In this document: in pieces, positions 334-14,487 of the stretch
How the letters are laid out: the number at the start of each line of letters is the position of its first letter
Position numbering within the stretch: position 1 is the first letter of the stretch
Virus record (IMG/VR): IMGVR_UViG_3300043119_000318
DNA length: 19,193 nucleotides
DNA from: a virus
Taxonomy: Duplodnaviria; Heunggongvirae; Uroviricota; Caudoviricetes
Strand: one strand, 5' to 3'
Program-made: the position numbers and the translations under genes
The notes under the pieces: generated by a model
Databases searched by the model: none
Told to the model about the DNA's origin: nothing
The model's input: only the letters and a program-made list of their open reading frames with translations

Positions 334-418
334 TGGTGGAGATTACTGGGATCGAACCAGTCGTGCCCGAGGGCGGCGGATTTACAGTCCACTGCATCAC
401 CATTGATGCTTCATCTCC
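334..418 (-). tRNA. tRNA-Tyr(GTA)
   Basis: GTGGA-CTGTAAA-TCCGC anticodon arm, long variable arm, CCA. Confidence 0.95.
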
Positions 419-430
419 ATTAAATACAAC

Positions 431-495
431 AGGATAGTGTTGTCGACTAAGACAATCCAATTTGAGTAGTCTGTATAATTTGCAGAAACTATCCT
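431..495 (-). ncRNA. tRNA-spacer motif copy A (AGGATNN...NNATCCT with TTWCWGCAAA)
   Basis: AGGATAG/CTATCCT stem followed by TTTCTGCAAA; same layout at 3995-4102 and 4600-4658. Confidence 0.7.
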
Positions 496-503
496 AAAAA
501 CTG

Positions 504-1872: not shown

Positions 1873-1962
1873 TGGCGGAGAGTAAGCGGATCGAACGCTT
1901 GCACCGATTACTCAGTGGTCTTGGTTTAGCAAACCAGCACATTGCCACTCTGTCAACTCTCC
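1873..1962 (-). tRNA. tRNA-Ser(GCT)
   Basis: TTGCTAA loop, long variable arm, G73, CCA. Confidence 0.94.
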
Positions 1963-2325
1963 ATAAACTTCACTACCATATAACGTAGTTTCTTTTTTAC
2001 CTTCCATAGATTTAACAGGAATATACACAACTTTATTATCGTCTGCCATATATACTGCCCATCCATCGATTAAACTACGATCTATTTCAATTTTTTTAGA
2101 ATTAACTATGGAAAACGCTCCAAGATTGTATGTGTTGCCTTTGTTCTTTTTTACAGTGGCTTGACGATACTTTATCTGAATCCTGAATGTTTTTCCAGTT
2201 TTATCCATCGCTATAACATCCACAGGAGAATGATCATCGAATGCATTAAATACATAATAACCATTGCTCTGTAGATCGTCAATTACTTTAATTAAACCAC
2301 GGACACCCTTTTCGTTAGTATTCAT
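1912..2325 (-). CDS. PD-(D/E)XK endonuclease, I-Ssp6803I/PDDEXK_5-like, free-standing homing endonuclease candidate
   Basis: KGVRG..KVI.DL...GY.VF...DDHSP.DVIA...RIQIK pattern; AAGGAG RBS; late promoter; last 17 codons overlap tRNA-Ser. Confidence 0.75.
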   Translation of the reverse strand: MNTNEKGVRGLIKVIDDLQSNGYYVFNAFDDHSPVDVIAMDKTGKTFRIQIKYRQATVKKNKGNTYNLGAFSIVNSKKIEIDRSLIDGWAVYMADDNKVVYIPVKSMEGKKETTLYGSEVYGELTEWQCAGLLNQDH

Positions 2326-3216: not shown

Positions 3217-3843
3217 TTAATTTATCACTCTACCACGACGCCAACCATCAGGAATTTCGTGTAGTTTATTGATCTTTTTGTTTTCCAAACCATCGGTTAT
3301 CCACATAGTTCCGAACTGCGAATTTTTATCTTTACTATGTTTTTCCAATGCGCTATAGCGCATTTTTTGTTTAGTTTCGTCAGAATGTTTACGCCCAAGA
3401 AACCTTTGATTACCAAGATTAGATTGACTGTTTTTACTTTTAGAATCTTCAGAATGTTTACGTCCGTACATAGGACTATTTGGATATTTTTCTTTCAATC
3501 GCAAAGACATCTTTAAGTAATGGTCAGCAGAATGTGTCGGATTTTCCTTCCAAGCATTTAGATAATCAAACCCACCATATCCACCTAGCTTTAGATTGTA
3601 TGTATTTTCTTCAGCAAGGAATTCATCATTAACAATCTCAGCTTCTTTTGCGTACATAAGTTCTGGAGTATCAAAAACAAAAAGAATTTCTTTGGTAAAA
3701 TTTTCTATACCATGCTTCTCTTGAGAGTATTTAAGATACTTTCCAGAACCCATATAATTGTCATTCAAATCTTTGGTTTTATGTGATCCAATATAGATCT
3801 TACCATTGATTCGATTCGTTATTTTATAAACAGTATAGTACAT
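3217..3843 (-). CDS. GIY-YIG homing endonuclease (Seg-like) with NUMOD3-type repeats
   Basis: YTVYKITN..NGKIYIG and YMGSG motifs; two GRKHS(E/D) repeats; GGAGG RBS. Confidence 0.9.
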   Translation of the reverse strand: MYYTVYKITNRINGKIYIGSHKTKDLNDNYMGSGKYLKYSQEKHGIENFTKEILFVFDTPELMYAKEAEIVNDEFLAEENTYNLKLGGYGGFDYLNAWKENPTHSADHYLKMSLRLKEKYPNSPMYGRKHSEDSKSKNSQSNLGNQRFLGRKHSDETKQKMRYSALEKHSKDKNSQFGTMWITDGLENKKINKLHEIPDGWRRGRVIN

Positions 3844-3869: not shown

Positions 3870-3899
3870 AAAGTTCGAGTCTTGACATCAACTCAAGGG

Positions 3900-3984
3900 A
3901 GGAAGCGGTGAGATTCGAACTCACGGACCCTTTCGAGTCGGCTGCTTTCTAGACAGATACAATAGACCACTCTGCCACGCTTCC
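3900..3984 (-). tRNA. tRNA-Ser(AGA), atypical, no encoded CCA
   Basis: Ser-type body (GGAAGCG/CGCTTCC, long variable arm), CTAGAAA loop; U73 followed by CCC. Confidence 0.7.
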
Positions 3985-3994
3985 ATTGAATAAC

Positions 3995-4102
3995 AGGATA
4001 CTTTCTTCGTCTGCTCTACCGAATGAGCTATTCGCGCTATTGCGTGAAACTGGAGTCGAACCAGTTACCTAACGTTTGAGTTAGTTTTGCTGTAAGTATC
4101 CT
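3995..4102 (-). ncRNA. tRNA-spacer motif copy B enclosing a circularly permuted tRNA
   Basis: AGGATAC/GTATCCT stem plus TTACAGCAAA; tRNA 3' half (4042-4075) lies upstream of the 5' half (4007-4037). Confidence 0.8.
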
Positions 4103-4108
4103 AAAACT

Positions 4109-4194
4109 TGGTGAAGTGAGTAGGGATCGAACCTACCTGCACCGAAGTGCCACTGGGTTACAGCCAGCTAGAACACCATTGTTCCATTCACTCC
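4109..4194 (-). tRNA. tRNA-Tyr(GTA), second copy
   Basis: GCTGG-CTGTAAC-CCAGT arm, long variable arm, CCA. Confidence 0.92.
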
Positions 4195-4457: not shown

Positions 4458-4508
4458 ATAGGTGACTGATTACTTATCTCATTGTACGCCATCAGTCAAG
4501 GCGATATT

Positions 4509-4587
4509 TGGCTCCGCATCTGGGTAACGATCCCAGCTAAACATTGATTAACAGTCAAGCCCATGCACCATGCTCGGGTTCTGCGGA
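4509..4587 (-). tRNA. tRNA-Asn(GTT)
   Basis: CTGTTAA loop, U1 and G73, CCA; non-canonical ATCGTTA T-loop. Confidence 0.85.
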
Positions 4588-4599
4588 ATTGAAAATAAC

Positions 4600-4658
4600 A
4601 GGATCAACTTTTTAGTTTCTGGATAAAAGAAAGTTTTTAAGTTTGCTGAAATGATCCT
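4600..4658 (-). ncRNA. tRNA-spacer motif copy C
   Basis: AGGATCA/TGATCCT stem plus TTTCAGCAAA. Confidence 0.7.
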
Positions 4659-4663
4659 AAAAC

Positions 4664-4737
4664 TGGAGCGGGATGCGAGAATCGAACTCGCAACTTCAAC
4701 TTGGAAGGATGACGTTTTACCACTAAACTAATCCCGC
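4664..4737 (-). tRNA. tRNA-Gly(TCC)
   Basis: CTTCCAA loop, U73, CCA. Confidence 0.95.
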
Positions 4738-4744
4738 ATAAATC

Positions 4745-4779
4745 TGGTTCCCAGTAGAGGTAACGATCCTCTGTCTTAC
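4745..4779 (-). pseudogene. Orphan 3' half of a tRNA (partner of 5476-5510)
   Basis: AGAGG-ATCGTTA-CCTCT T-arm, ACTGGGA acceptor strand, ACCA end. Confidence 0.8.
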
Positions 4780-4787
4780 TAATCTAC

Positions 4788-4862
4788 TGGTAGAAGATGT
4801 TGGTAACGATCCAACCTCTGTGCCTTATCAAGACACTGCTAATCCGTCTCAGCTAATCTCCC
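4788..4862 (-). tRNA. tRNA-Ile(GAT)
   Basis: GTGTC-TTGATAA-GGCAC arm, A73, CCA; ATCGTTA T-loop. Confidence 0.88.
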
Positions 4863-5441
4863 AATATATTCTTTAGATAGCTGGTGTTCCAGAAGAACAA
4901 ACAATCTAACAGAGTTTTGCTCAATGACCTTTCTTATCTTTTCTTCGTCATGTTTTGCTTTATAGCTATTCTTTGGGTCAAGCCAGATATCTAAATCTGG
5001 AAGATAAAAATCTGCAAAGTAATTCCTATTATCATATTTCAACGCTTTAGGTCTAATCCATTTTATACCAAGTTCATTTAAAATCTCACTACACCTAAAT
5101 TCATAAGAACTTTGAAGTGTAGTTTCTTTTCCAAACGAGTCAATAACTCGAAACTTCTTCGAGTTACCAGCGTTTTCTCTATAACCACCGAACCCTTGCT
5201 TTTTAGCATTTTCTGATCTTTCTTCGGTAGACCAAGCTGCTGCCCCACCTCTTTTCCAGTTAGATCTGTCATATACTGGCGGCTCAATACACAATGATTT
5301 TGATTTTGTGTATTGATTACTACCCTTCTTACCTAACATTCCATTTTTATATTCCCTGTTTGCATTTTTAGGACACCTTAATTCATGATTTTTATGTGAC
5401 CTTTTGTTGCAATCTTTACTACAGTATTTACAAATAAACAT
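4839..5441 (-). CDS. Putative homing endonuclease: N-terminal Zn finger plus PD-(D/E)XK (TnsA-N/Vsr-like) domain
   Basis: CKYC..HELRC zinc motif; LQSSYE and YFADFYLPDLDIWLDPKN motifs; GGAGG RBS; stop codon lies inside tRNA-Ile. Confidence 0.75.
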   Translation of the reverse strand: MFICKYCSKDCNKRSHKNHELRCPKNANREYKNGMLGKKGSNQYTKSKSLCIEPPVYDRSNWKRGGAAAWSTEERSENAKKQGFGGYRENAGNSKKFRVIDSFGKETTLQSSYEFRCSEILNELGIKWIRPKALKYDNRNYFADFYLPDLDIWLDPKNSYKAKHDEEKIRKVIEQNSVRLFVLLEHQLSKEYIGRLAETD

Positions 5442-5691: not shown

Positions 5692-5755
5692 TGGTAGGAG
5701 CAGAGGGATTCGAACCCTCGACCAACGGATTAAAAGTCCGCTGCGCCATACTCCC
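5692..5755 (-). pseudogene. tRNA-Lys(TTT) lacking the D-arm (64 nt)
   Basis: Intact acceptor, anticodon and T arms and CCA, but only 7 nt (TGGCGCA) between acceptor and anticodon stems. Confidence 0.8.
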
Positions 5756-6020: not shown

Positions 6021-6049
6021 ATTTTACTTCAAACCTGAATTAAAGTCAA
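6021..6049 (-). promoter_or_regulatory. Sigma70-type early promoter for the tRNA array
   Basis: TTGACT-17 nt-TAAAAT. Confidence 0.85.
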
Positions 6050-6107
6050 GCACTTCTTTCAAGCTAAGCGAAGAACAGAACAACCTCTTCACTCAACCTA
6101 AGCACCT

Positions 6108-6136
6108 ATTTTACTTCAGAAGTGAATTAAAGTAAA
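6108..6136 (-). promoter_or_regulatory. Early promoter (TTTACT variant) for the tRNA array
   Basis: TTTACT-17 nt-TAAAAT, near-identical context to 1258-1286. Confidence 0.8.
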
Positions 6137-6169
6137 GCACTTCATAAGACCCTACAGTCTGTAGGGGTA

Positions 6170-6210
6170 AAACAAAAAACCCTCGAGAGACTTTCATCTC
6201 CGAGGGTTTT
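6170..6210 (-). terminator. Rho-independent terminator (conditional, see attenuator finding)
   Basis: AAAACCCTCG/CGAGGGTTTT stem with GAGA/TCTC extension, then TTTTTTGTTTT. Confidence 0.85.
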
Positions 6211-6254
6211 GGTAAAATTAAGTAAGACCGTTACGTCTTCTTACCAAAACCCTC
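6202..6254 (-). promoter_or_regulatory. Candidate antiterminator hairpin
   Basis: 14-bp perfect inverted repeat 6241-6254/6202-6215 that overlaps the terminator 5' arm. Confidence 0.7.
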
Positions 6255-6356
6255 AACATCATACTCAATCGCAAATACATTTCCTGATTGTGGGCGTGCG
6301 CCTGTCCAGACTCTATTTGATAGAGGTAGATGTTTTCTGGATAAGAGACACGACAT
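6231..6356 (-). CDS. Candidate leader peptide, 41 aa (MSCLLSRKHLPLSNRVWTGARPQSGNVFAIEYDVEGFGKKT)
   Basis: AAGGAA RBS with an in-frame TTG alternative start; follows the promoter at 6411-6439; the stop lies in the antiterminator loop. Confidence 0.65.
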   Translation of the reverse strand: MSCLLSRKHLPLSNRVWTGARPQSGNVFAIEYDVEGFGKKT

Positions 6357-6410
6357 TTGCAATTGATTCCTTGGTTTGATAAGACTATGCCTTATCATCT
6401 ATTTAGCGTT

Positions 6411-6439
6411 ATTATACAGCGATTTTCGTTTAAAGTCAA
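6411..6439 (-). promoter_or_regulatory. Sigma70-type promoter driving the leader
   Basis: TTGACT-17 nt-TATAAT; the -35 box contains the TGA stop of the deaminase. Confidence 0.85.
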
Positions 6440-11125: not shown

Positions 11126-12112
11126 TTAAGGCGTGATTCTTCTACCAACCGAGTCATAAGTTATAGGTTTCTTGGGACGATCGTCCCAAGGAGGATATTC
11201 CTCAGTATAATTATTTTCTTGCGGAGAATTTATTGTTTCTGTGGAAACTGTGCTTATAATATGTTCTTCAGGTTCTGGTGGAACCTCGGCTGCATTATCT
11301 GGTGCCGGTGGTGCGACTTGCGTTACAGCATCTGTTATTTGTGGATTTATTACATCTTTAACAAGAGATTCCCTGTTAAGCTGCCAGTTTGCTGCAATTA
11401 GAAGTAAAACTGCCAGTGGGTCAAATACACATACGATTAATAAGATAACAATACGAACTGCAGATTCAAGCGTGTTTGTGTCAGTTGAATCACTGTAAAT
11501 AAGCGCAGCAATGTATTTAATTGGACCAACCTCAGCCTCGACCTTGCGAACTTCAGATGCAATGGGTGCTCGTTCTTCATTTAATTTGGTGATTTTAGCC
11601 TGCGCTGTTCCAATATCAGCCAGAATTGTGGCTCTTTCCTTCTGTTGAGACTTTCTAATCTGTAAAGATCGTTCGACACCCTTGGAGTCGTCGCTTCGCC
11701 CAATAGTTTGGTCAACCTGTAGATCAAGTTGCTTGATTTGTTTTCGAGCTACGTCTACATTATCTTTTTCAGTTTTAATCTTCTCATCTAAGAGAGCTAG
11801 CTTTGCTGCTACTTCACCCGAAGGAACTGCTTGGTCTAAGTGTGCCTTGGAGAGATATCCAAAAATTCCCATTGATGTCAACATCATCAAAATTACAAGG
11901 GCAGTAGTGAAGTATGCCTTCATTAAAATTGGAATTTCTTTCCAAGAGCGATATAACCAAGATGCTACAACTAACTTAGATGCCTCTAATAGAGAGCCCA
12001 TGACTAAAATTGGAATCGGTGCAGCTGCGAAAATAGCTACAAGACCCATTATCGAATAATAGGCAGCAACACCTGACAATCCAAATGCTGTTGCGAATAG
12101 CAAGTAAACCAT
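11126..12112 (-). CDS. Hypothetical multi-pass membrane protein with a coiled coil
   Basis: Three N-terminal hydrophobic helices, heptad-rich middle, C-terminal TM segment and Pro/acidic tail. Confidence 0.8.
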   Translation of the reverse strand: MVYLLFATAFGLSGVAAYYSIMGLVAIFAAAPIPILVMGSLLEASKLVVASWLYRSWKEIPILMKAYFTTALVILMMLTSMGIFGYLSKAHLDQAVPSGEVAAKLALLDEKIKTEKDNVDVARKQIKQLDLQVDQTIGRSDDSKGVERSLQIRKSQQKERATILADIGTAQAKITKLNEERAPIASEVRKVEAEVGPIKYIAALIYSDSTDTNTLESAVRIVILLIVCVFDPLAVLLLIAANWQLNRESLVKDVINPQITDAVTQVAPPAPDNAAEVPPEPEEHIISTVSTETINSPQENNYTEEYPPWDDRPKKPITYDSVGRRITP

Positions 12113-12892
12113 TTAACAATTCCATTTACGTAATGCAAGTGCCTTTCGAGATGGTTCTCCGTTAGGCTTCTTCATCGGACCTTCAACACCAGACATTCTG
12201 GCACAGAAAGACTTGCGACGATTGGCTGCTTTGCTTCCAGCTTTTAGTTTTGATGGTGGAGTTGTGACAGGTGCCTTTAAATTCCCACCACTTTGGTTGT
12301 TATAATGATCGCGACCCTTTTGAGTCAAGCCACCAGTAGAACTCTTATAACCTTTAGCATCTACTGCAGCTTCATAAAGTTCTTCGTCGTCAAAATCTTC
12401 CCAAATTTCGTCAGAGTGGATATCATATTTAATTGATAGTTCTTCAACAAATTCTTCAATAATATCGAACTGCTCATCTAGTTCTTCTCTAGATTTTAAA
12501 TAGTCTCTGACTGAACTAATATAATCTTGCGCTAGCGTGATTTTAGATTGAACCCACTCAGGCATATTGTCATCATCAGACAACATGTCAATTAAATCTT
12601 TCGAATTGCGACAGATAGTTTGCAGCTGCGTTCTAGCCATTTGACCTTCGTAGTCATACTCGCCTTGGTCGATTGCTTTTGCAGCTTCTTCCAGCATGTT
12701 GAATGTGTATTCAAAAGATTCTTGAGATGCTTTAATCGCTGCAGAAGTTGGCGCACCTTTGCTTCCAGGTTTACGCATACGCTCACCAGATCCAGCTTTG
12801 ATTCGTTTACGTTTGGCATGGATGTTATCCCAGAGACCGCGTTCACCTTCTGAAACATTTTCTTCTTTAAGATATTGTGAAAATGATAGCAT
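12113..12892 (-). CDS. Conserved modular phage hypothetical protein (C-terminal DUF6321-like domain)
   Basis: GLWDNIHAKR N-terminal motif, LPEWVQ-like middle motif, RRKSFCARM...ALRKWNC C-terminal motif. Confidence 0.7.
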   Translation of the reverse strand: MLSFSQYLKEENVSEGERGLWDNIHAKRKRIKAGSGERMRKPGSKGAPTSAAIKASQESFEYTFNMLEEAAKAIDQGEYDYEGQMARTQLQTICRNSKDLIDMLSDDDNMPEWVQSKITLAQDYISSVRDYLKSREELDEQFDIIEEFVEELSIKYDIHSDEIWEDFDDEELYEAAVDAKGYKSSTGGLTQKGRDHYNNQSGGNLKAPVTTPPSKLKAGSKAANRRKSFCARMSGVEGPMKKPNGEPSRKALALRKWNC

Positions 12893-13317
12893 TATAGTTT
12901 TCCTTTTATATGAGACTTATGAATTCTGCAACTTATTTGCCCATTATAATATGTATCACTTTCAAGAACTCTGCGGGAAAATTGCTCTCTGGCTTCGACA
13001 TATGAGCATTCCGCTTTTGATTTGCAGAAAAATAGAATCTCTCGGGTGAAGTTTTCCTTCCCAAAAGATTCTACATCTTTATTTAGTTCAATACTTGACC
13101 CATAATACTCCATCCAATCAGAATCTATCTTAGATTTGATCTTCTTTTTCTTCTTGGTTCCATTCTTAAGAGTTACAGTTTTATATGTAGTCTTTGAAAA
13201 TTTGGAAAGTTTTTTACCTATATACATGCGACTATTCGTCAGATTCGTAATCATATATACGAATCCGACGCAGTCTTCAGGAAGAGTTTCAATTGTTTCA
13301 GTATTATAAGTCCACAT
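12892..13317 (-). CDS. Small GIY-YIG-domain nuclease
   Basis: GFVYMITN...MYIGKK and YYGSS motifs. Confidence 0.8.
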   Translation of the reverse strand: MWTYNTETIETLPEDCVGFVYMITNLTNSRMYIGKKLSKFSKTTYKTVTLKNGTKKKKKIKSKIDSDWMEYYGSSIELNKDVESFGKENFTREILFFCKSKAECSYVEAREQFSRRVLESDTYYNGQISCRIHKSHIKGKL

Positions 13318-13500: not shown

Positions 13501-14487
13501 TTATTTAGCCCATACATCATCCCAAGAACCAGACAGAGCACCCTTTGCATAGTCTGTAACTCTGTTTTCAAAGAAATTTCCATGCACAGGTGCATTGATC
13601 ATTTCCTCAACCCATGGCAGTGGATTCTTTTTAACCTTGAAGATACCCTTCATACCAAGAGAAATAAGACGACGATCAGCAATGTAACGAATGTACTTCT
13701 TCACTTCTTCTGTAGTTAAATCTCGCATGTCTGATCCAGCGAATGAAAGGTCAATGAACTTATCTTCAAGCTCAACCATCTTCTCAGCGATAGTATAGAT
13801 TTTGCTCTTTAGACTATCGTTCCAGATCTCAGGATTTTCCTTGATGAATTCTTTGAAAAGACGAATCATGTTCTCAGCATGTTGAGTTTCATCAACAATG
13901 GACCAAGTAACGATCTGTCCCATACCCTTCATCAATCCATGACGAGGGAAGTTCAAAAGCATAATAAAGCTACTAAACAGTTGCATACCTTCGGTGAACG
14001 CTGAGAATACTGCAATATGTGTTGCAGTAGACTCAAGAGTTCCGTTTTTTGAACTGAGCTCAGTGACATAATCGTGCTTGTCTCTCATCTCTTGATACTC
14101 AAGAAACTGATTATAAGTTGACTCAGGAAGTCCAAGAGTCTCAATCAAGTGCGAGTAAGCAGCGATATGCAATGCTTCACGAGCAGCAAACCCAAGAAGC
14201 ATCATACGGATTTCTGGTTGAGGGAAATGTGGAAGATAGTTAGTCACGTATCCGCCAGCAACGTCAATGTCGCCTTGCGTGAAGAAACGGAAGATATTTG
14301 TTAAGAACTGTTGTTCCTCTTTAGTCAACTGTTTCTTCCACTGCTTAACGTCCTCAGCCATTGGAACTTCTGTATGAAGCCAGTGGGATTGTTCGTGCTT
14401 CAACCAAGCATCATATGCCCATGGATAGTTAAATGGTTTGAACGATGTACGTTCGTCTGTTAATCTACTTTTTATTTTTGCGATCAT
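13501..14487 (-). CDS. nrdB: Ribonucleotide reductase class Ia beta subunit
   Basis: FFTQGD, EALHIAAY, EGMQLFSSF, DETQH and NFFE motifs. Confidence 0.97.
   Translation of the reverse strand: MIAKIKSRLTDERTSFKPFNYPWAYDAWLKHEQSHWLHTEVPMAEDVKQWKKQLTKEEQQFLTNIFRFFTQGDIDVAGGYVTNYLPHFPQPEIRMMLLGFAAREALHIAAYSHLIETLGLPESTYNQFLEYQEMRDKHDYVTELSSKNGTLESTATHIAVFSAFTEGMQLFSSFIMLLNFPRHGLMKGMGQIVTWSIVDETQHAENMIRLFKEFIKENPEIWNDSLKSKIYTIAEKMVELEDKFIDLSFAGSDMRDLTTEEVKKYIRYIADRRLISLGMKGIFKVKKNPLPWVEEMINAPVHGNFFENRVTDYAKGALSGSWDDVWAK

What the first reader, a model, noticed from the sequence alone, without database searches (positions are those of the whole stretch)
3995..4102. Circularly permuted, anticodon-less tRNA inside a conserved stem
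Minus-strand order: ACGTT (anticodon stem 3' strand), AGGTA, ACTGG-TTCGACT-CCAGT (perfect T-arm), TTCACGC, a 4-nt AATA linker, GCGCGAA (acceptor 6/7 paired), TA, GCTC-ATTCGGTA-GAGC (perfect D-arm), A, GACGA. The 3' half precedes the 5' half with exact canonical spacing. The anticodon loop is replaced by the open ends leading into the AGGATAC/GTATCCT stem. Permuted tRNA genes are known from red/green algae and an archaeon, and permuted tmRNAs from some bacteria; I know of no phage example built this way. Either RNase P and 3' trimming open the linker to give a two-piece, chargeable tRNA mimic or decoy with no anticodon to cut, or the flanks are removed and ligated to create an anticodon. I cannot read a canonical anticodon from the flanks.
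Basis: partly seen in the sequence, partly recalled or inferred. Interest (0 to 1): 0.82.

Follow-up and report, generated by a model that had tools for sequence, protein, structure and literature searches.

The report
Phage Y-like RNA with tRNA-mimic head
The spacer between two tRNA genes of this uncultured T4-like phage encodes a small structured RNA: a tRNA-shaped head with its arms in rotated order and a sealed acceptor end, on a conserved stem "handle"; it is most likely one of several partner RNAs of a Ro60-like protein encoded at the end of the same tRNA array.

Summary
It is not an assembly artefact: two independent metagenome assemblies carry the identical sequence.

It is one member of a large phage RNA family. 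All members share a handle: a terminal stem, then nnUnCAGCAA, and CUGUU at the 3' end. They sit flush between tRNA genes. At least 47 distinct members carry the same rotated module (V-like hairpin, T arm, closed acceptor hairpin, D arm), and the helices covary strongly.

This is the architecture of bacterial and phage YrlA Y RNAs, which are known. The element nevertheless fails YrlA membership: 30.7 bits against Rfam's 69, and no GNCGAA motif.

The likely partner is a Ro60-like protein (Pfam DUF2828/DUF7788, which the TROVE model does not detect). Its gene starts about 8 kb downstream on the same strand. Its predicted fold matches Ro60 over the full length, and it co-occurs with handle RNAs (14/17 against 1/13 records).

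The idea that the flanks are ligated to create an anticodon is not supported. Opening of the acceptor loop by RNase P has a precedent but is doubtful for this tetraloop copy. The handle also resembles Dictyostelium Class I RNAs.

Earlier agents of this scan found the same family on other DNA several times. Verdict: a new variant of a known kind. Binding and function are inferred, not shown.

The parts
4103..4108 (-). 5' flank AGUUUU, directly after the CCA-A of tRNA-Tyr. It is the U-rich lead-in of the handle and a likely 3'-processing (RNase E type) site.
   Evidence: 123 of 191 distinct elements are preceded by CCA, then 0-3 nt, then a U run. The RNase E reading is inference.
4096..4102 (-). 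Handle stem, 5' strand AGGAUAC.
   Evidence: It pairs with 3995-4001. The inner pairs covary across copies: AU/GC/CG/UA at column 12 and CG/GC/UA/AU at column 13. The three window copies read AGGATAG/CTATCCT, AGGATAC/GTATCCT and AGGATCA/TGATCCT.
4086..4095 (-). Single-stranded handle motif UUA-CAGCAAA. C, G, C, A, A are invariant.
   Evidence: Invariant in 28 of 28 aligned permuted elements and in 191 elements (partly by how they were ascertained). It matches the CCUUACAGCAA motif of Rfam RF01414.
4069..4084 (-). Hairpin H1, CUAAC-UCAAAC-GUUAG. It sits where YrlA has its V stem-loop; in some relatives it is a full anticodon-like arm with a 7-nt loop.
   Evidence: It is in the MFE fold. It covaries: CTATC/GATAG, ACATC/GATGT, CAACA/TGTTG. 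L019, L113 and L103 have the loops CUUCUAA and CUUAAAA.
4049..4065 (-). T arm ACUGG-UUCGACU-CCAGU.
   Evidence: U54, U55, C56, A58 and G53-C61 are invariant in 28 of 28, and three stem pairs covary.
4031..4048 (-). Closed acceptor-like hairpin UUCACGC-AAUA-GCGCGAA. The loop is 4038-4041 and G+1 is at 4037.
   Evidence: All 7 pairs show changes on both sides across relatives. Loops in relatives range from GNRA and UUCG tetraloops to N-CCA plus spacer.
4013..4030 (-). U8-A9 followed by the D arm GCUC-AUUCGGUA-GAGC.
   Evidence: G10 and G18/G19 are invariant, A21 is at least 90% conserved, and three stem pairs covary.
4002..4012 (-). 3' linker A-GACGA-AGAAA. GACGA can pair with ACGUU (4075-4071) to give a YrlA-type closing stem as an alternative to H1.
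   Evidence: 4-5 of 5 pairs are possible in 8 of 8 relatives, with compensating changes. This fold is 5.6-9.4 kcal/mol less stable than the H1 fold by nearest-neighbour energies.
3985..4001 (-). Handle stem 3' strand GUAUCCU, then the tail GUUAUUCAAU, which runs up to the 5' end of tRNA-Ser.
   Evidence: AUCCU-G-U-U is 94-100% conserved. Its CUGU equals the 3' end of Class I RNAs.
4592..4664 (-). Second handle RNA of the window (short form), after tRNA-Gly.
   Evidence: D14; 47.8 bits; RF01414, 19.8 bits.
423..501 (-). Third handle RNA of the window (short form), after tRNA-Pro.
   Evidence: D14; 39.4 bits.
4109..4194 (-). Upstream tRNA-Tyr(GTA). Its 3' processing would set the 5' end of the element.
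   Evidence: The processing step is inferred.
3898..3984 (-). Downstream tRNA-Ser(AGA). RNase P cleavage at its 5' end would set the 3' end of the element.
   Evidence: The processing step is inferred.
6021..6439 (-). Sigma-70-like promoters upstream of the array. No terminator-like site lies between them and the element.
   Evidence: These are consensus matches only.

Best explanation
The spacer encodes a roughly 115-nt non-coding RNA of an uncatalogued phage family of Y-like RNAs.

**Production (inferred).** It is transcribed with the tRNA array. Maturation of its neighbours cuts it out: 3' processing of tRNA-Tyr on one side and RNase P cleavage at tRNA-Ser on the other.

**Handle (shown).** Its two ends pair into a conserved handle: a 7-bp stem, single-stranded UUACAGCAAA on the 5' side and CUGUU on the 3' side.

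**Head (shown by sequence and covariation).** The handle carries a tRNA-shaped head built like that of YrlA: a V-like hairpin, a T arm, a loop-closed 7-bp acceptor stem and a D arm. All the nucleotides that form the tRNA elbow are present.

**Partner (inferred).** The handle is bound by the phage's own Ro60-like ring protein (DUF2828/DUF7788). Its gene starts about 8 kb downstream on the same strand, at the end of the array.

**Function (inferred).** As in Ro60-Y RNA particles, the head serves as the effector module. It is a tRNA look-alike that cannot be charged or decoded. It either tethers the particle to a tRNA-recognising partner or soaks up such a partner. Candidates are an exonuclease such as PNPase, tRNA repair or modification enzymes, or a host tRNA-targeting nuclease. 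On this reading the particle serves tRNA quality control or counter-defence during infection.
For: **The RNA and its family**
- The structure and its covariation are supported.
- An IMG/VR pattern scan hit at least 117 contigs, and 132 of 150 hits have the matching closing strand.
- The fetched loci hold 191 distinct elements. A covariance model found 258 hits in 0.9 Mb, of which 47 are distinct permuted modules.

**Likeness to YrlA**
- The Rfam YrlA model aligns the head: model positions 23-89, 30.7 bits, E 3e-5.
- The stem-loop order V, T, AS, D is the one described for YrlA (PMC4201824).

**The protein in this phage**
- L149 is identical to the window over 11 kb.
- It ends in an ORF that is 65% identical (E 4e-35) to the N-terminus of the DUF2828 protein and hits PF11443.
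- A promoter-driven handle RNA lies just upstream of that ORF.

**Synteny and co-occurrence**
- A handle RNA ends 25 nt or less before the DUF2828 start in 4 of 4 records. In L147 it is the permuted type.
- DUF2828 is present in 14 of 17 handle-positive records against 1 of 13 handle-negative records (Fisher p = 1.2e-4). It is present in all 5 complete handle-positive genomes.

**The fold**
- The AlphaFold2 model has pLDDT 92 and pTM 0.90.
- The 12 best PDB matches are all Ro60/TROVE proteins, aligned over the full length. They include Ro60 with Y RNA (1yvp, TM 0.64/0.58), Rsr and Thermus phage phiLo Ro60.
- A profile search of PDB sequences also ranks Ro60 first.
- The MIDAS motif DxSGS is conserved.

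**Precedent.** Phage Ro60 binds phage Y-like RNAs and host PNPase (PMC12135203).
Against:
- The handle lacks the GNCGAA/CGAA motif that known Ro60 proteins use. The Pfam TROVE model finds nothing in 10 records. Partnership therefore rests on synteny, co-occurrence and fold.
- In this phage the gene lies about 8 kb from the element, not beside it, and only its first 81 codons were seen.
- Three handle-positive records lack the gene. All three are incomplete, and in two of them the array lies at a contig end.
- The element's position flush between tRNAs also fits a purely cis-acting processing role.
- The closing of the head is ambiguous: two competing helices both show compensating changes.
Confidence: 0.62

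Rival explanations
1. It is a stand-alone tRNA decoy and has nothing to do with the Ro60-like protein. The sealed tRNA body, like the anticodon-arm-like hairpins on sister handle RNAs, soaks up host enzymes that attack or modify tRNAs. The handle serves only for stability and excision.
For: - Sister elements display 5-bp hairpins with 7-nt anticodon-like loops. CUUUUAA occurs 19 times, and CUUCUAA, CUUGUAA and CUGUUAA also occur.
- The cargo is interchangeable on one handle.
- The phage invests heavily in tRNAs: at least 31 tRNA genes.
Against: - The invariant single-stranded CAGCAA and CUGU are more than stability would need.
- Handle RNAs co-occur with the DUF2828 gene and lie next to it.
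- The A/U-rich composition could by itself produce many of the anticodon-like loops.
Confidence: 0.15
2. It is opened by RNase P at 4038/4037 and trimmed, and it receives CCA. The result is a two-piece tRNA-like RNA held together by the acceptor and handle stems. This RNA may be charged, as proposed for M. smegmatis YrlA.
For: - M. smegmatis YrlA has a 7-bp acceptor, is cut by M1 RNA in vitro, and is cleaved and given CCA in vivo (PMC4201824).
- The T stem (5 bp) and acceptor stem (7 bp) stack, and G+1-C72 is the commonest closing pair (18 of 25).
- About 10 of 49 relatives start the loop with N-CCA followed by a spacer (P = 4e-9 by chance).
Against: - This copy has a 4-nt AAUA loop, no CCA and an A.C mismatch in the stem.
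- Relatives with GNRA or UUCG tetraloops, or with a conserved UUGGUC(A) loop, look designed to stay closed.
- No CCA-adding enzyme gene was found in two complete related phages, although the host has one.
- No aminoacylation identity element is evident (position 3-70 is G-C).
Confidence: 0.15
3. It is a cis-acting spacer with no function in trans. The stable stem and the U-rich flanks insulate the folding of neighbouring tRNAs and guide RNase E and RNase P processing. The tRNA-like interior is a relic of a tandem tRNA junction.
For: - The element starts 1 nt after a CCA and ends about 10 nt before the next tRNA, as do most copies.
- The flank CCAG-UUUU resembles the RNase E preference. This is my own recollection and was not tested.
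- N-CCA loops fit descent from head-to-tail tRNA junctions.
Against: - All seven acceptor pairs, the T stem and the D stem are kept by compensating changes in at least 47 distinct elements. Selection therefore acts on the head itself.
- Handle RNAs also occur with their own promoter directly before the Ro60-like gene and away from tRNAs.
- The single-stranded motif is invariant.
Confidence: 0.06
4. It is a true circularly permuted tRNA gene of the red-alga type. The ends are joined to build an anticodon loop and the linker is removed, giving a decoding tRNA.
For: The only support is the order of the halves (3' half before 5' half) and the canonical spacing.
Against: - There is no bulge-helix-bulge motif, and bacteria have no splicing endonuclease (established knowledge).
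- The flanks are a conserved handle shared with cargo that is not tRNA-like.
- No anticodon can be read. ARAGORN and the Rfam tRNA model do not call it.
- Tetraloop-capped acceptors in relatives also argue against it.
Confidence: 0.02

Closest known systems
YrlA (Y RNA-like A; Rfam RF02553) of bacteria and actinophages, bound by Rsr/Ro60 (Chen et al. 2014, PMC4201824)
   Same: - A terminal stem formed by the 5' and 3' ends carries a tRNA-like module in the order V stem-loop, T arm, loop-closed acceptor-like stem, D arm.
- The tRNA elbow nucleotides are conserved.
- It is encoded on the same strand as a Ro60-type gene.
- One member with a 7-bp acceptor is opened by RNase P.
   Different: - It scores 30.7 bits against a gathering score of 69, and only model positions 23-89 align.
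- It has no GNCGAAN0-1G motif. Its handle has CAGCAA and CUGUU instead.
- It lies flush inside a tRNA array.
- Its protein neighbour is DUF2828/DUF7788, which the TROVE model does not see, and the gene is about 8 kb away where YrlA genes lie within 4 kb.
- Sister RNAs on the same handle carry quite different cargo.
Thermus phage phiLo Ro60 with Yrl1/Yrl2 and host PNPase (PMC12135203; PDB 9KOP, 9L5Y)
   Same: A phage-encoded Ro60-fold ring protein has small phage RNAs encoded upstream of its gene. The phiLo protein is among the best structural matches of the DUF2828 model.
   Different: The phiLo RNAs carry the CGAA motif in a bulge, and the paper describes no tRNA-like head. The protein here belongs to a different sequence family, and nothing has been tested biochemically.
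Dictyostelium Class I RNAs (Rfam RF01414; Kjellin et al. 2021, PMC7919456)
   Same: The handle matches in several features:
- a short stem joining the 5' and 3' ends;
- the motif (CC)UUACAGCAA next to the 5' strand, with the same invariant C, C, A, A;
- a variable A/U-rich middle;
- a 3' CUGU whose C pairs with the 5' G.

Phage short forms score up to 35 bits over the full model.
   Different: - The scores are below the gathering score of 41.5 (19.8 bits for the window's short copy).
- There is no DUSE promoter.
- The host kingdom differs.
- Class I RNAs are reported as unique to Dictyostelia and are bound by an RRM protein. No RRM gene was found in 2 complete phages.
- Whether the likeness reflects common descent or convergence is unknown.
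Circularly permuted tRNA genes (Cyanidioschyzon merolae and relatives) and two-piece permuted tmRNA genes
   Same: The 3' part of the tRNA-like domain (T arm, acceptor 3' strand) precedes the 5' part (acceptor 5' strand, D arm), separated by a short linker.
   Different: - There is no circularisation signal, no reconstituted anticodon and no tag reading frame.
- There is no G3.U70, and this copy encodes no CCA.
- The outer ends are a conserved protein-type handle and are not discarded.

Membership tests
YrlA (Rfam RF02553) | Score at or above the curated gathering score (69 bits) over the whole model. | tested here: not met
   nothing at the gathering score; 30.7 bits, with only model positions 23-89 of 114. 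Relatives score 29.6-33.7 bits.
YrlA (Rfam RF02553) | tRNA-like module in the order V, T arm, closed acceptor-like stem, D arm, with the tRNA elbow nucleotides. | tested here: met
   compared with the description in PMC4201824.
YrlA (Rfam RF02553) | GNCGAAN0-1G (Ro60-binding) motif near the 5' end. | tested here: not met
   the 5' part reads AGGAUACUUACAGCAAAACUAAC. It contains no GNCGAA; the invariant motif is CAGCAA.
YrlA (Rfam RF02553) | Encoded within about 4 kb of a TROVE-domain Ro60 ortholog and on the same strand. | tested here: not met
   PF05731 is absent from 10 related records. A protein with the Ro60 fold but of the DUF2828 family lies on the same strand about 8 kb away.
YrlA (Rfam RF02553) | Bound by Rsr/Ro60 in vivo and carrying tRNA-type modifications. 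| not testable with these tools
   Needs immunoprecipitation and modification mapping.
CAGCAA-handle Y-like RNAs beside DUF2828 Ro60-like proteins (uncatalogued; seen before by this scan) | Terminal stem, then nnUnCAGCAA, with CUGUU at the 3' end. | tested here: met
CAGCAA-handle Y-like RNAs beside DUF2828 Ro60-like proteins (uncatalogued; seen before by this scan) | A DUF2828/DUF7788 gene with the Ro60 fold in the same genome, near the handle RNAs. | tested here: met
   In this phage only the first 81 codons were seen.
CAGCAA-handle Y-like RNAs beside DUF2828 Ro60-like proteins (uncatalogued; seen before by this scan) | Physical binding of the handle by the protein. | not testable with these tools
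   No RNA-protein prediction or binding assay was available.
Circularly permuted tRNA gene (C. merolae type) | 3' half upstream of 5' half, separated by a linker. | tested here: met
Circularly permuted tRNA gene (C. merolae type) | Termini that can be joined (bulge-helix-bulge) to give a 7-nt anticodon loop and a decoding tRNA. | tested here: not met
   The termini form the conserved handle with 20-nt and 11-nt linkers. No anticodon can be read, and neither ARAGORN nor the Rfam tRNA model calls it.
Two-piece (permuted) tmRNA | Tag reading frame, G3.U70 alanine identity and an encoded CCA after the acceptor 3' strand. | tested here: not met
   ARAGORN finds no tmRNA here. Position 3-70 is G-C, the loop is AAUA, and there is no room for a tag frame.
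Dictyostelium Class I RNA (Rfam RF01414), for the handle only | Score at or above the gathering score (41.5 bits). | tested here: not met
   19.8 bits for window 4599-4657. The best relatives score 31-35 bits.
Dictyostelium Class I RNA (Rfam RF01414), for the handle only | 5' G-led terminal stem, 11-nt motif with invariant U3, C6, C9, A10, A11, and 3' CUGU. | tested here: met
   compared with PMC7919456. There is a 1-nt difference in spacing.
Dictyostelium Class I RNA (Rfam RF01414), for the handle only | DUSE promoter about 60 nt upstream, in a dictyostelid genome. | tested here: not met
   The element is in a phage tRNA array and is transcribed from sigma-70-like promoters.

The most novel reading that the evidence does not exclude
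The stem-CAGCAA-CUGU handle may be the RNA ligand of a whole unrecognised branch of the Ro60 superfamily (DUF2828/DUF7788). That branch has thousands of phage clusters and also eukaryotic members. On this reading the Dictyostelium Class I RNAs are the eukaryotic counterpart of these Y-like RNAs. In phages, the interchangeable tRNA-part cargoes would aim one ring protein at different tRNA-directed enzymes or at damaged tRNAs. The cargoes seen are anticodon arms, whole tRNA bodies, and sealed permuted bodies like this one. This would amount to a modular viral RNP for tRNA defence or repair.
Probability: 0.25. Interest if true: 0.85.

Novelty: new variant of a known kind. Interest (0 to 1): 0.6.

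Why it matters
Ro60-Y RNA particles are conserved from bacteria to humans, yet their functions remain only partly understood. In phages they are known from a handful of TROVE-type cases.

Here the same logic (a ring protein, RNAs with a handle, and a tRNA-mimic head) appears in a sequence family that standard models miss:
- The protein is annotated only as DUF2828/DUF7788.
- The RNAs are absent from Rfam.
- The family is very large: 6139 protein clusters at 50% identity, and more than 100 viral contigs from a single RNA pattern scan.
- It sits inside phage tRNA arrays.

It offers a natural set of tRNA mimics with swapped cargo on one scaffold. That set is directly usable to ask what Ro60-like proteins do with tRNA-shaped RNAs during infection, including in conflicts with host tRNA-cleaving defences.

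The unexpected likeness of the handle to Dictyostelium Class I RNAs also suggests a concrete protein partner to test for. The function of those RNAs has been open since 2004.

Tried and rejected
**Closed or unavailable**
- No genome is held for the window. The records behind L149 and L150 are not held, so the full DUF2828 gene of this phage was not seen.

**Searches that found nothing useful**
- blastn and megablast of the element and of the whole window against 50,697 phage records matched only tRNA genes. There is no close cultured relative.
- A ribonucleotide reductase (RNR) protein search did not place the phage.
- Pfam TROVE was absent from 10 records.
- RRM was absent from 5 records.
- The CCA-adding enzyme family was absent from 2 complete genomes.
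- Before I read the scan's earlier notes, these negatives had led me to think there was no Ro-type partner. The DUF2828 test reversed that.
- T4 rnaC and rnaD do not share the handle.
- The Synechococcus phage S-H35 hit was only an unannotated tRNA dimer.
- Literature searches found no description of the handle or of DUF2828 as an RNA-binding protein.

**Technical dead ends**
- A single-sequence AlphaFold model was useless (pLDDT 39).
- The AlphaFold DB cluster search masks organisms, so I could not tell whether dictyostelids have the protein.

**Readings rejected**
- Assembly artefact: rejected because two assemblies carry the identical sequence.
- Decayed tandem-tRNA junction: rejected by covariation.
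- Permuted tRNA re-joined at the flanks.
- tmRNA.

**Not tried**
- Complex prediction was not used because it cannot take RNA.
Full report
**1. The observation**

The window's first 6 kb, read on the minus strand, is a phage tRNA array. ARAGORN tRNAs and Rfam adds two more. The finding fills the 124-nt spacer between tRNA-Tyr (4109-4194) and tRNA-Ser (3898-3984).

The spacer folds better than all 200 shuffles (z = -3.45). The minimum-energy fold contains the outer stem, the T arm, the acceptor hairpin and the D arm.

Two metagenome assemblies from different JGI samples (L149, L150) are identical to the window over 11,146 bases, including the 4038-4041 junction. An assembly artefact is therefore excluded.

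**2. It is one member of a large family**

The flanking motif occurs three times in the window: 4108-3985, 4664-4592 and 501-423. The inner stem pairs covary between these copies.

A scan of IMG/VR for a T-arm...D-arm pattern found two homologues with the same rotated order inside the same stem (L013, L016). Of 150 hits, 132 have the matching closing strand within 260 nt.

In the fetched loci I count 191 distinct elements. Nearly all share the consensus CCA-G-UUUU | AGGAUnn-nUn-CAGCAA ... nnAUCCU | GUUnUAU, and 123 follow a tRNA CCA directly.

The letters AGGAU were fixed by my search pattern. The same loci also hold copies with other stems: AGAGUAG and AGGUUAG in this phage's own array and GGAAAUCU in a Vibrio phage. 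The general features are therefore the stem, CAGCAA and C(U/C)GU.

The cargo between the two handle strands falls into three kinds:
- About 130-145 short forms, depending on the cut-off. They often carry a 5-bp hairpin with a 7-nt anticodon-like loop; CUUUUAA occurs 19 times.
- About 10 forms with a tRNA body in normal order.
- The permuted kind, to which the finding belongs.

**3. Structure of the permuted kind**

I aligned 28 distinct permuted elements (A1). On the four helices, 96.2% of cells are standard pairs, against 36-46% when the 3' partners are slid by 1-3 columns. Changes on both sides occur in 15 of 23 pairs, including all 7 pairs of the acceptor hairpin.

The nucleotides that build the tRNA elbow are invariant or nearly so: U54, U55, C56, A58, G53-C61, G10 and G18/G19, with A21 at 90% or more.

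A covariance model built from A1 found 258 handle elements in 0.9 Mb of loci. Of these, 47 are distinct elements with a T arm followed directly by a closed hairpin and a D arm.

The cap of the acceptor hairpin varies:
- GNRA (GAAA, GUAA, GCAA) and UUCG tetraloops.
- A conserved UUGGUC(A) loop in one subfamily.
- In about 10 of 49 elements, N-CCA followed by a 4-16-nt spacer. The chance probability of that count is 4e-9.

The window's cap is AAUA, closed by a C-G pair.

The closure of the head is ambiguous. The competing local hairpin also covaries and is 5.6-9.4 kcal/mol more stable by nearest-neighbour energies. In other subfamilies this hairpin is a full anticodon-like arm (loops CUUCUAA, CUUAAAA), or a second hairpin follows the D arm. 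The point at which the tRNA is opened therefore differs between subfamilies.

**4. What it resembles**

A permissive Rfam scan of the spacer gives one meaningful match, YrlA (RF02553): 30.7 bits, E 3e-5, model positions 23-89 of 114. That is the tRNA-like module only and is well below the gathering score of 69.

Chen et al. 2014 (PMC4201824) describe YrlA as follows:
- a 5'/3' stem with a GNCGAAN0-1G motif for Ro60 (Rsr);
- four stem-loops in the order V, T, AS (acceptor-like), D;
- found next to Ro60 genes in 254 bacteria and 22 phages.

They also show that M. smegmatis YrlA, which has a 7-bp acceptor stem, is cut by RNase P and receives CCA in vivo, whereas the Salmonella and Deinococcus RNAs are not cut.

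The head of the present RNA thus has the YrlA architecture. The handle, however, is not YrlA's: there is no GNCGAA.

**5. The partner**

My first tests for a Ro60 gene were negative. Pfam TROVE was absent from 10 related records, including two complete genomes, although the positive controls rang.

The scan's earlier notes then reported that the same CAGCAA-handle RNAs lie beside a Ro60-like DUF2828 protein in other phages, including the very 364-kb phage behind my locus L085. I tested this claim myself.

*Presence and position.* PF11443 finds ORFs of 473-496 aa in 4 of 5 records, including both complete genomes. In all four, a handle RNA ends 25 nt or less before the start codon; in L147 it is a permuted tRNA mimic like the finding.

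*Co-occurrence.* Over 30 records, the gene is present in 14 of 17 that have handle RNAs and in 1 of 13 that do not (Fisher p = 1.2e-4). The three exceptions are incomplete, and two of them have the array at a contig end. All five complete handle-positive genomes have the gene.

*Fold.* With a 90-sequence alignment, AlphaFold2 gives a confident model (pLDDT 92.2, pTM 0.90). Its 12 best PDB matches are all Ro60/TROVE proteins, aligned over the full length: Xenopus Ro60 with Y RNA (1yvp, TM 0.64/0.58), Ro60 with misfolded RNA, human Ro60, Deinococcus Rsr and Thermus phage phiLo Ro60. A sequence profile also ranks Ro60 first, though weakly (E 0.05). The vWA MIDAS motif is conserved.

*Family size.* The family has 6139 clusters at 50% identity.

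*This phage.* L149 extends the window's own contig 5 kb past its start. It holds 11 more tRNAs and four more handle RNAs. After those come a handle RNA with its own promoter, an opposite-strand NUMOD3 endonuclease gene, and a cut ORF. That ORF is 65% identical (E 4e-35) to the N-terminus of the DUF2828 protein and hits PF11443. The Ro60-like gene therefore starts about 3.9 kb beyond the window's start, about 8 kb downstream of the finding on the same strand.

**6. How it most likely works**

Shown:
- the RNA's conserved structure;
- its family;
- its YrlA-type head;
- the presence, fold and co-occurrence of the Ro60-like gene.

Inferred:
- The RNA is co-transcribed with the array. Sigma-70-like promoters lie at 6.0-6.4 kb with no terminator between them and the element.
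- It is released by maturation of its neighbours.
- The handle is bound by the Ro60-like ring.
- The head acts as the effector module, as in Ro60/Y RNA/PNPase particles (PMC4201824). The phage phiLo Ro60-Yrl-PNPase complex is a further example (PMC12135203).

The head is a tRNA look-alike that cannot be charged or decoded. It would tether or sequester a tRNA-recognising factor. I cannot say which factor. The jumbo-phage literature links TROVE proteins and their tRNA-like partner to RNA repair (PMC7824862).

I put 0.62 on this overall reading. I put about 0.9 on the narrower claim that this is a real, selected ncRNA with a YrlA-type head on the CAGCAA handle.

Rivals:
- a protein-independent decoy (0.15);
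- an RNase P-opened two-piece form (0.15; this could also be a variant of the main reading);
- a purely cis-acting spacer (0.06);
- a true permuted tRNA gene (0.02).

**7. An unexpected likeness**

The best Rfam match of the short handle RNAs is Dicty_Class_I_RNA (RF01414). The window's copy scores 19.8 bits. Copies in five of five related records score up to 35 bits over the full model, with E about 1e-6 per record. The gathering score is 41.5.

Class I RNAs are defined by four features (PMC7919456):
- a 5' G-led terminal stem;
- the motif CCUUACAGCAA with invariant U, C, C, A, A;
- a variable middle;
- a 3' CUGU.

The phage handle shares all four. Class I RNAs were reported as unique to Dictyostelia, and their function is unknown. 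I could not test whether dictyostelids have a DUF2828 protein, because organisms are masked. An earlier agent of this scan noted the same likeness independently.

**8. Verdict**

- The element is a new variant of a known kind: a Ro60/Y RNA particle with a YrlA-type tRNA mimic.
- This scan has met the family several times on other DNA. I found no published description of the handle or of DUF2828 as its partner in the searchable literature.

Noticed in passing
window 4592-4664 (-) and 423-501 (-); L016:3797-3851: The short handle RNAs resemble Dictyostelium Class I RNAs (Rfam RF01414): a terminal stem, UUnCAGCAA and a 3' CUGU. Scores reach 35 bits against a gathering score of 41.5, in 5 of 5 related phage records. 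Class I RNAs are published as unique to dictyostelids.
   Followed up: partly
L144:255-530 (Vibrio phage vB_VpaP-MS02, OR102882 55129-55794): A cultured phage has a related element. It has a stem GGAAAUCU/AGAUUUCC, then AACAGCAAACC, then a permuted tRNA-like body. The acceptor 'loop' of that body begins G-CCA and contains a whole second tRNA-like unit with its own CAGCAA motif. ARAGORN calls no tRNA there, and the fold has z = -3.55.
   Followed up: partly
L149:11150-11216, 11884-11995, 12071-12145, 14183-14290 (same phage, beyond the window's start): The phage has at least four more handle RNAs. One carries a tRNA body in normal order with a UCC loop on a different stem (AGAGUAG). One has its own sigma-70-like promoter and lies just before the Ro60-like gene. 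A NUMOD3 endonuclease gene is inserted on the opposite strand between that RNA and the gene.
   Followed up: partly
window about 4495-4583 (-), 4745-4779 (-), 2397-2430: Several tRNA-like stretches have an unusual T loop (GGGAUCGUUACCC type). One looks like a tRNA with a GUU anticodon loop that neither ARAGORN nor Rfam calls at threshold. The same T loop occurs in the called tRNA-Ile(GAT).
   Followed up: no
window 5695-5755 (-) and 337-418 (-): The Rfam tRNA model matches two places (53.7 and 36 bits) that ARAGORN did not report, so the array holds more tRNA genes than the 20 listed.
   Followed up: no
L036:6237-6366, L025:2340-2467, L105:8844-8972, L018:147-277, L032:7476-7605 and others: One subfamily of permuted modules keeps a conserved acceptor-cap loop UUGGUC(A) and a D arm UGGUGUAGUGGUAGCAC. 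This suggests that the cap itself is recognised in that subfamily.
   Followed up: no
L045, L111, L058, L042, L096, L021, L024, L019, L082, L124/L125 (acceptor loops): About 10 of 49 permuted modules start the acceptor loop with N-CCA followed by a 4-16-nt spacer (chance P = 4e-9). It looks like a fossil or a working copy of a tRNA 3' end followed by an inter-tRNA spacer. These members are the best candidates for opening by RNase P.
   Followed up: partly
window 1912-2325, 3217-3843, 4839-5441, 12892-13317 (all -): Four free-standing endonuclease-type genes (PDDEXK_5, two GIY-YIG/SegE-like, and one without a Pfam match) are interspersed in and near the tRNA array. Each is preceded by a T4-late-promoter-like TATAAATA.
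   Followed up: no
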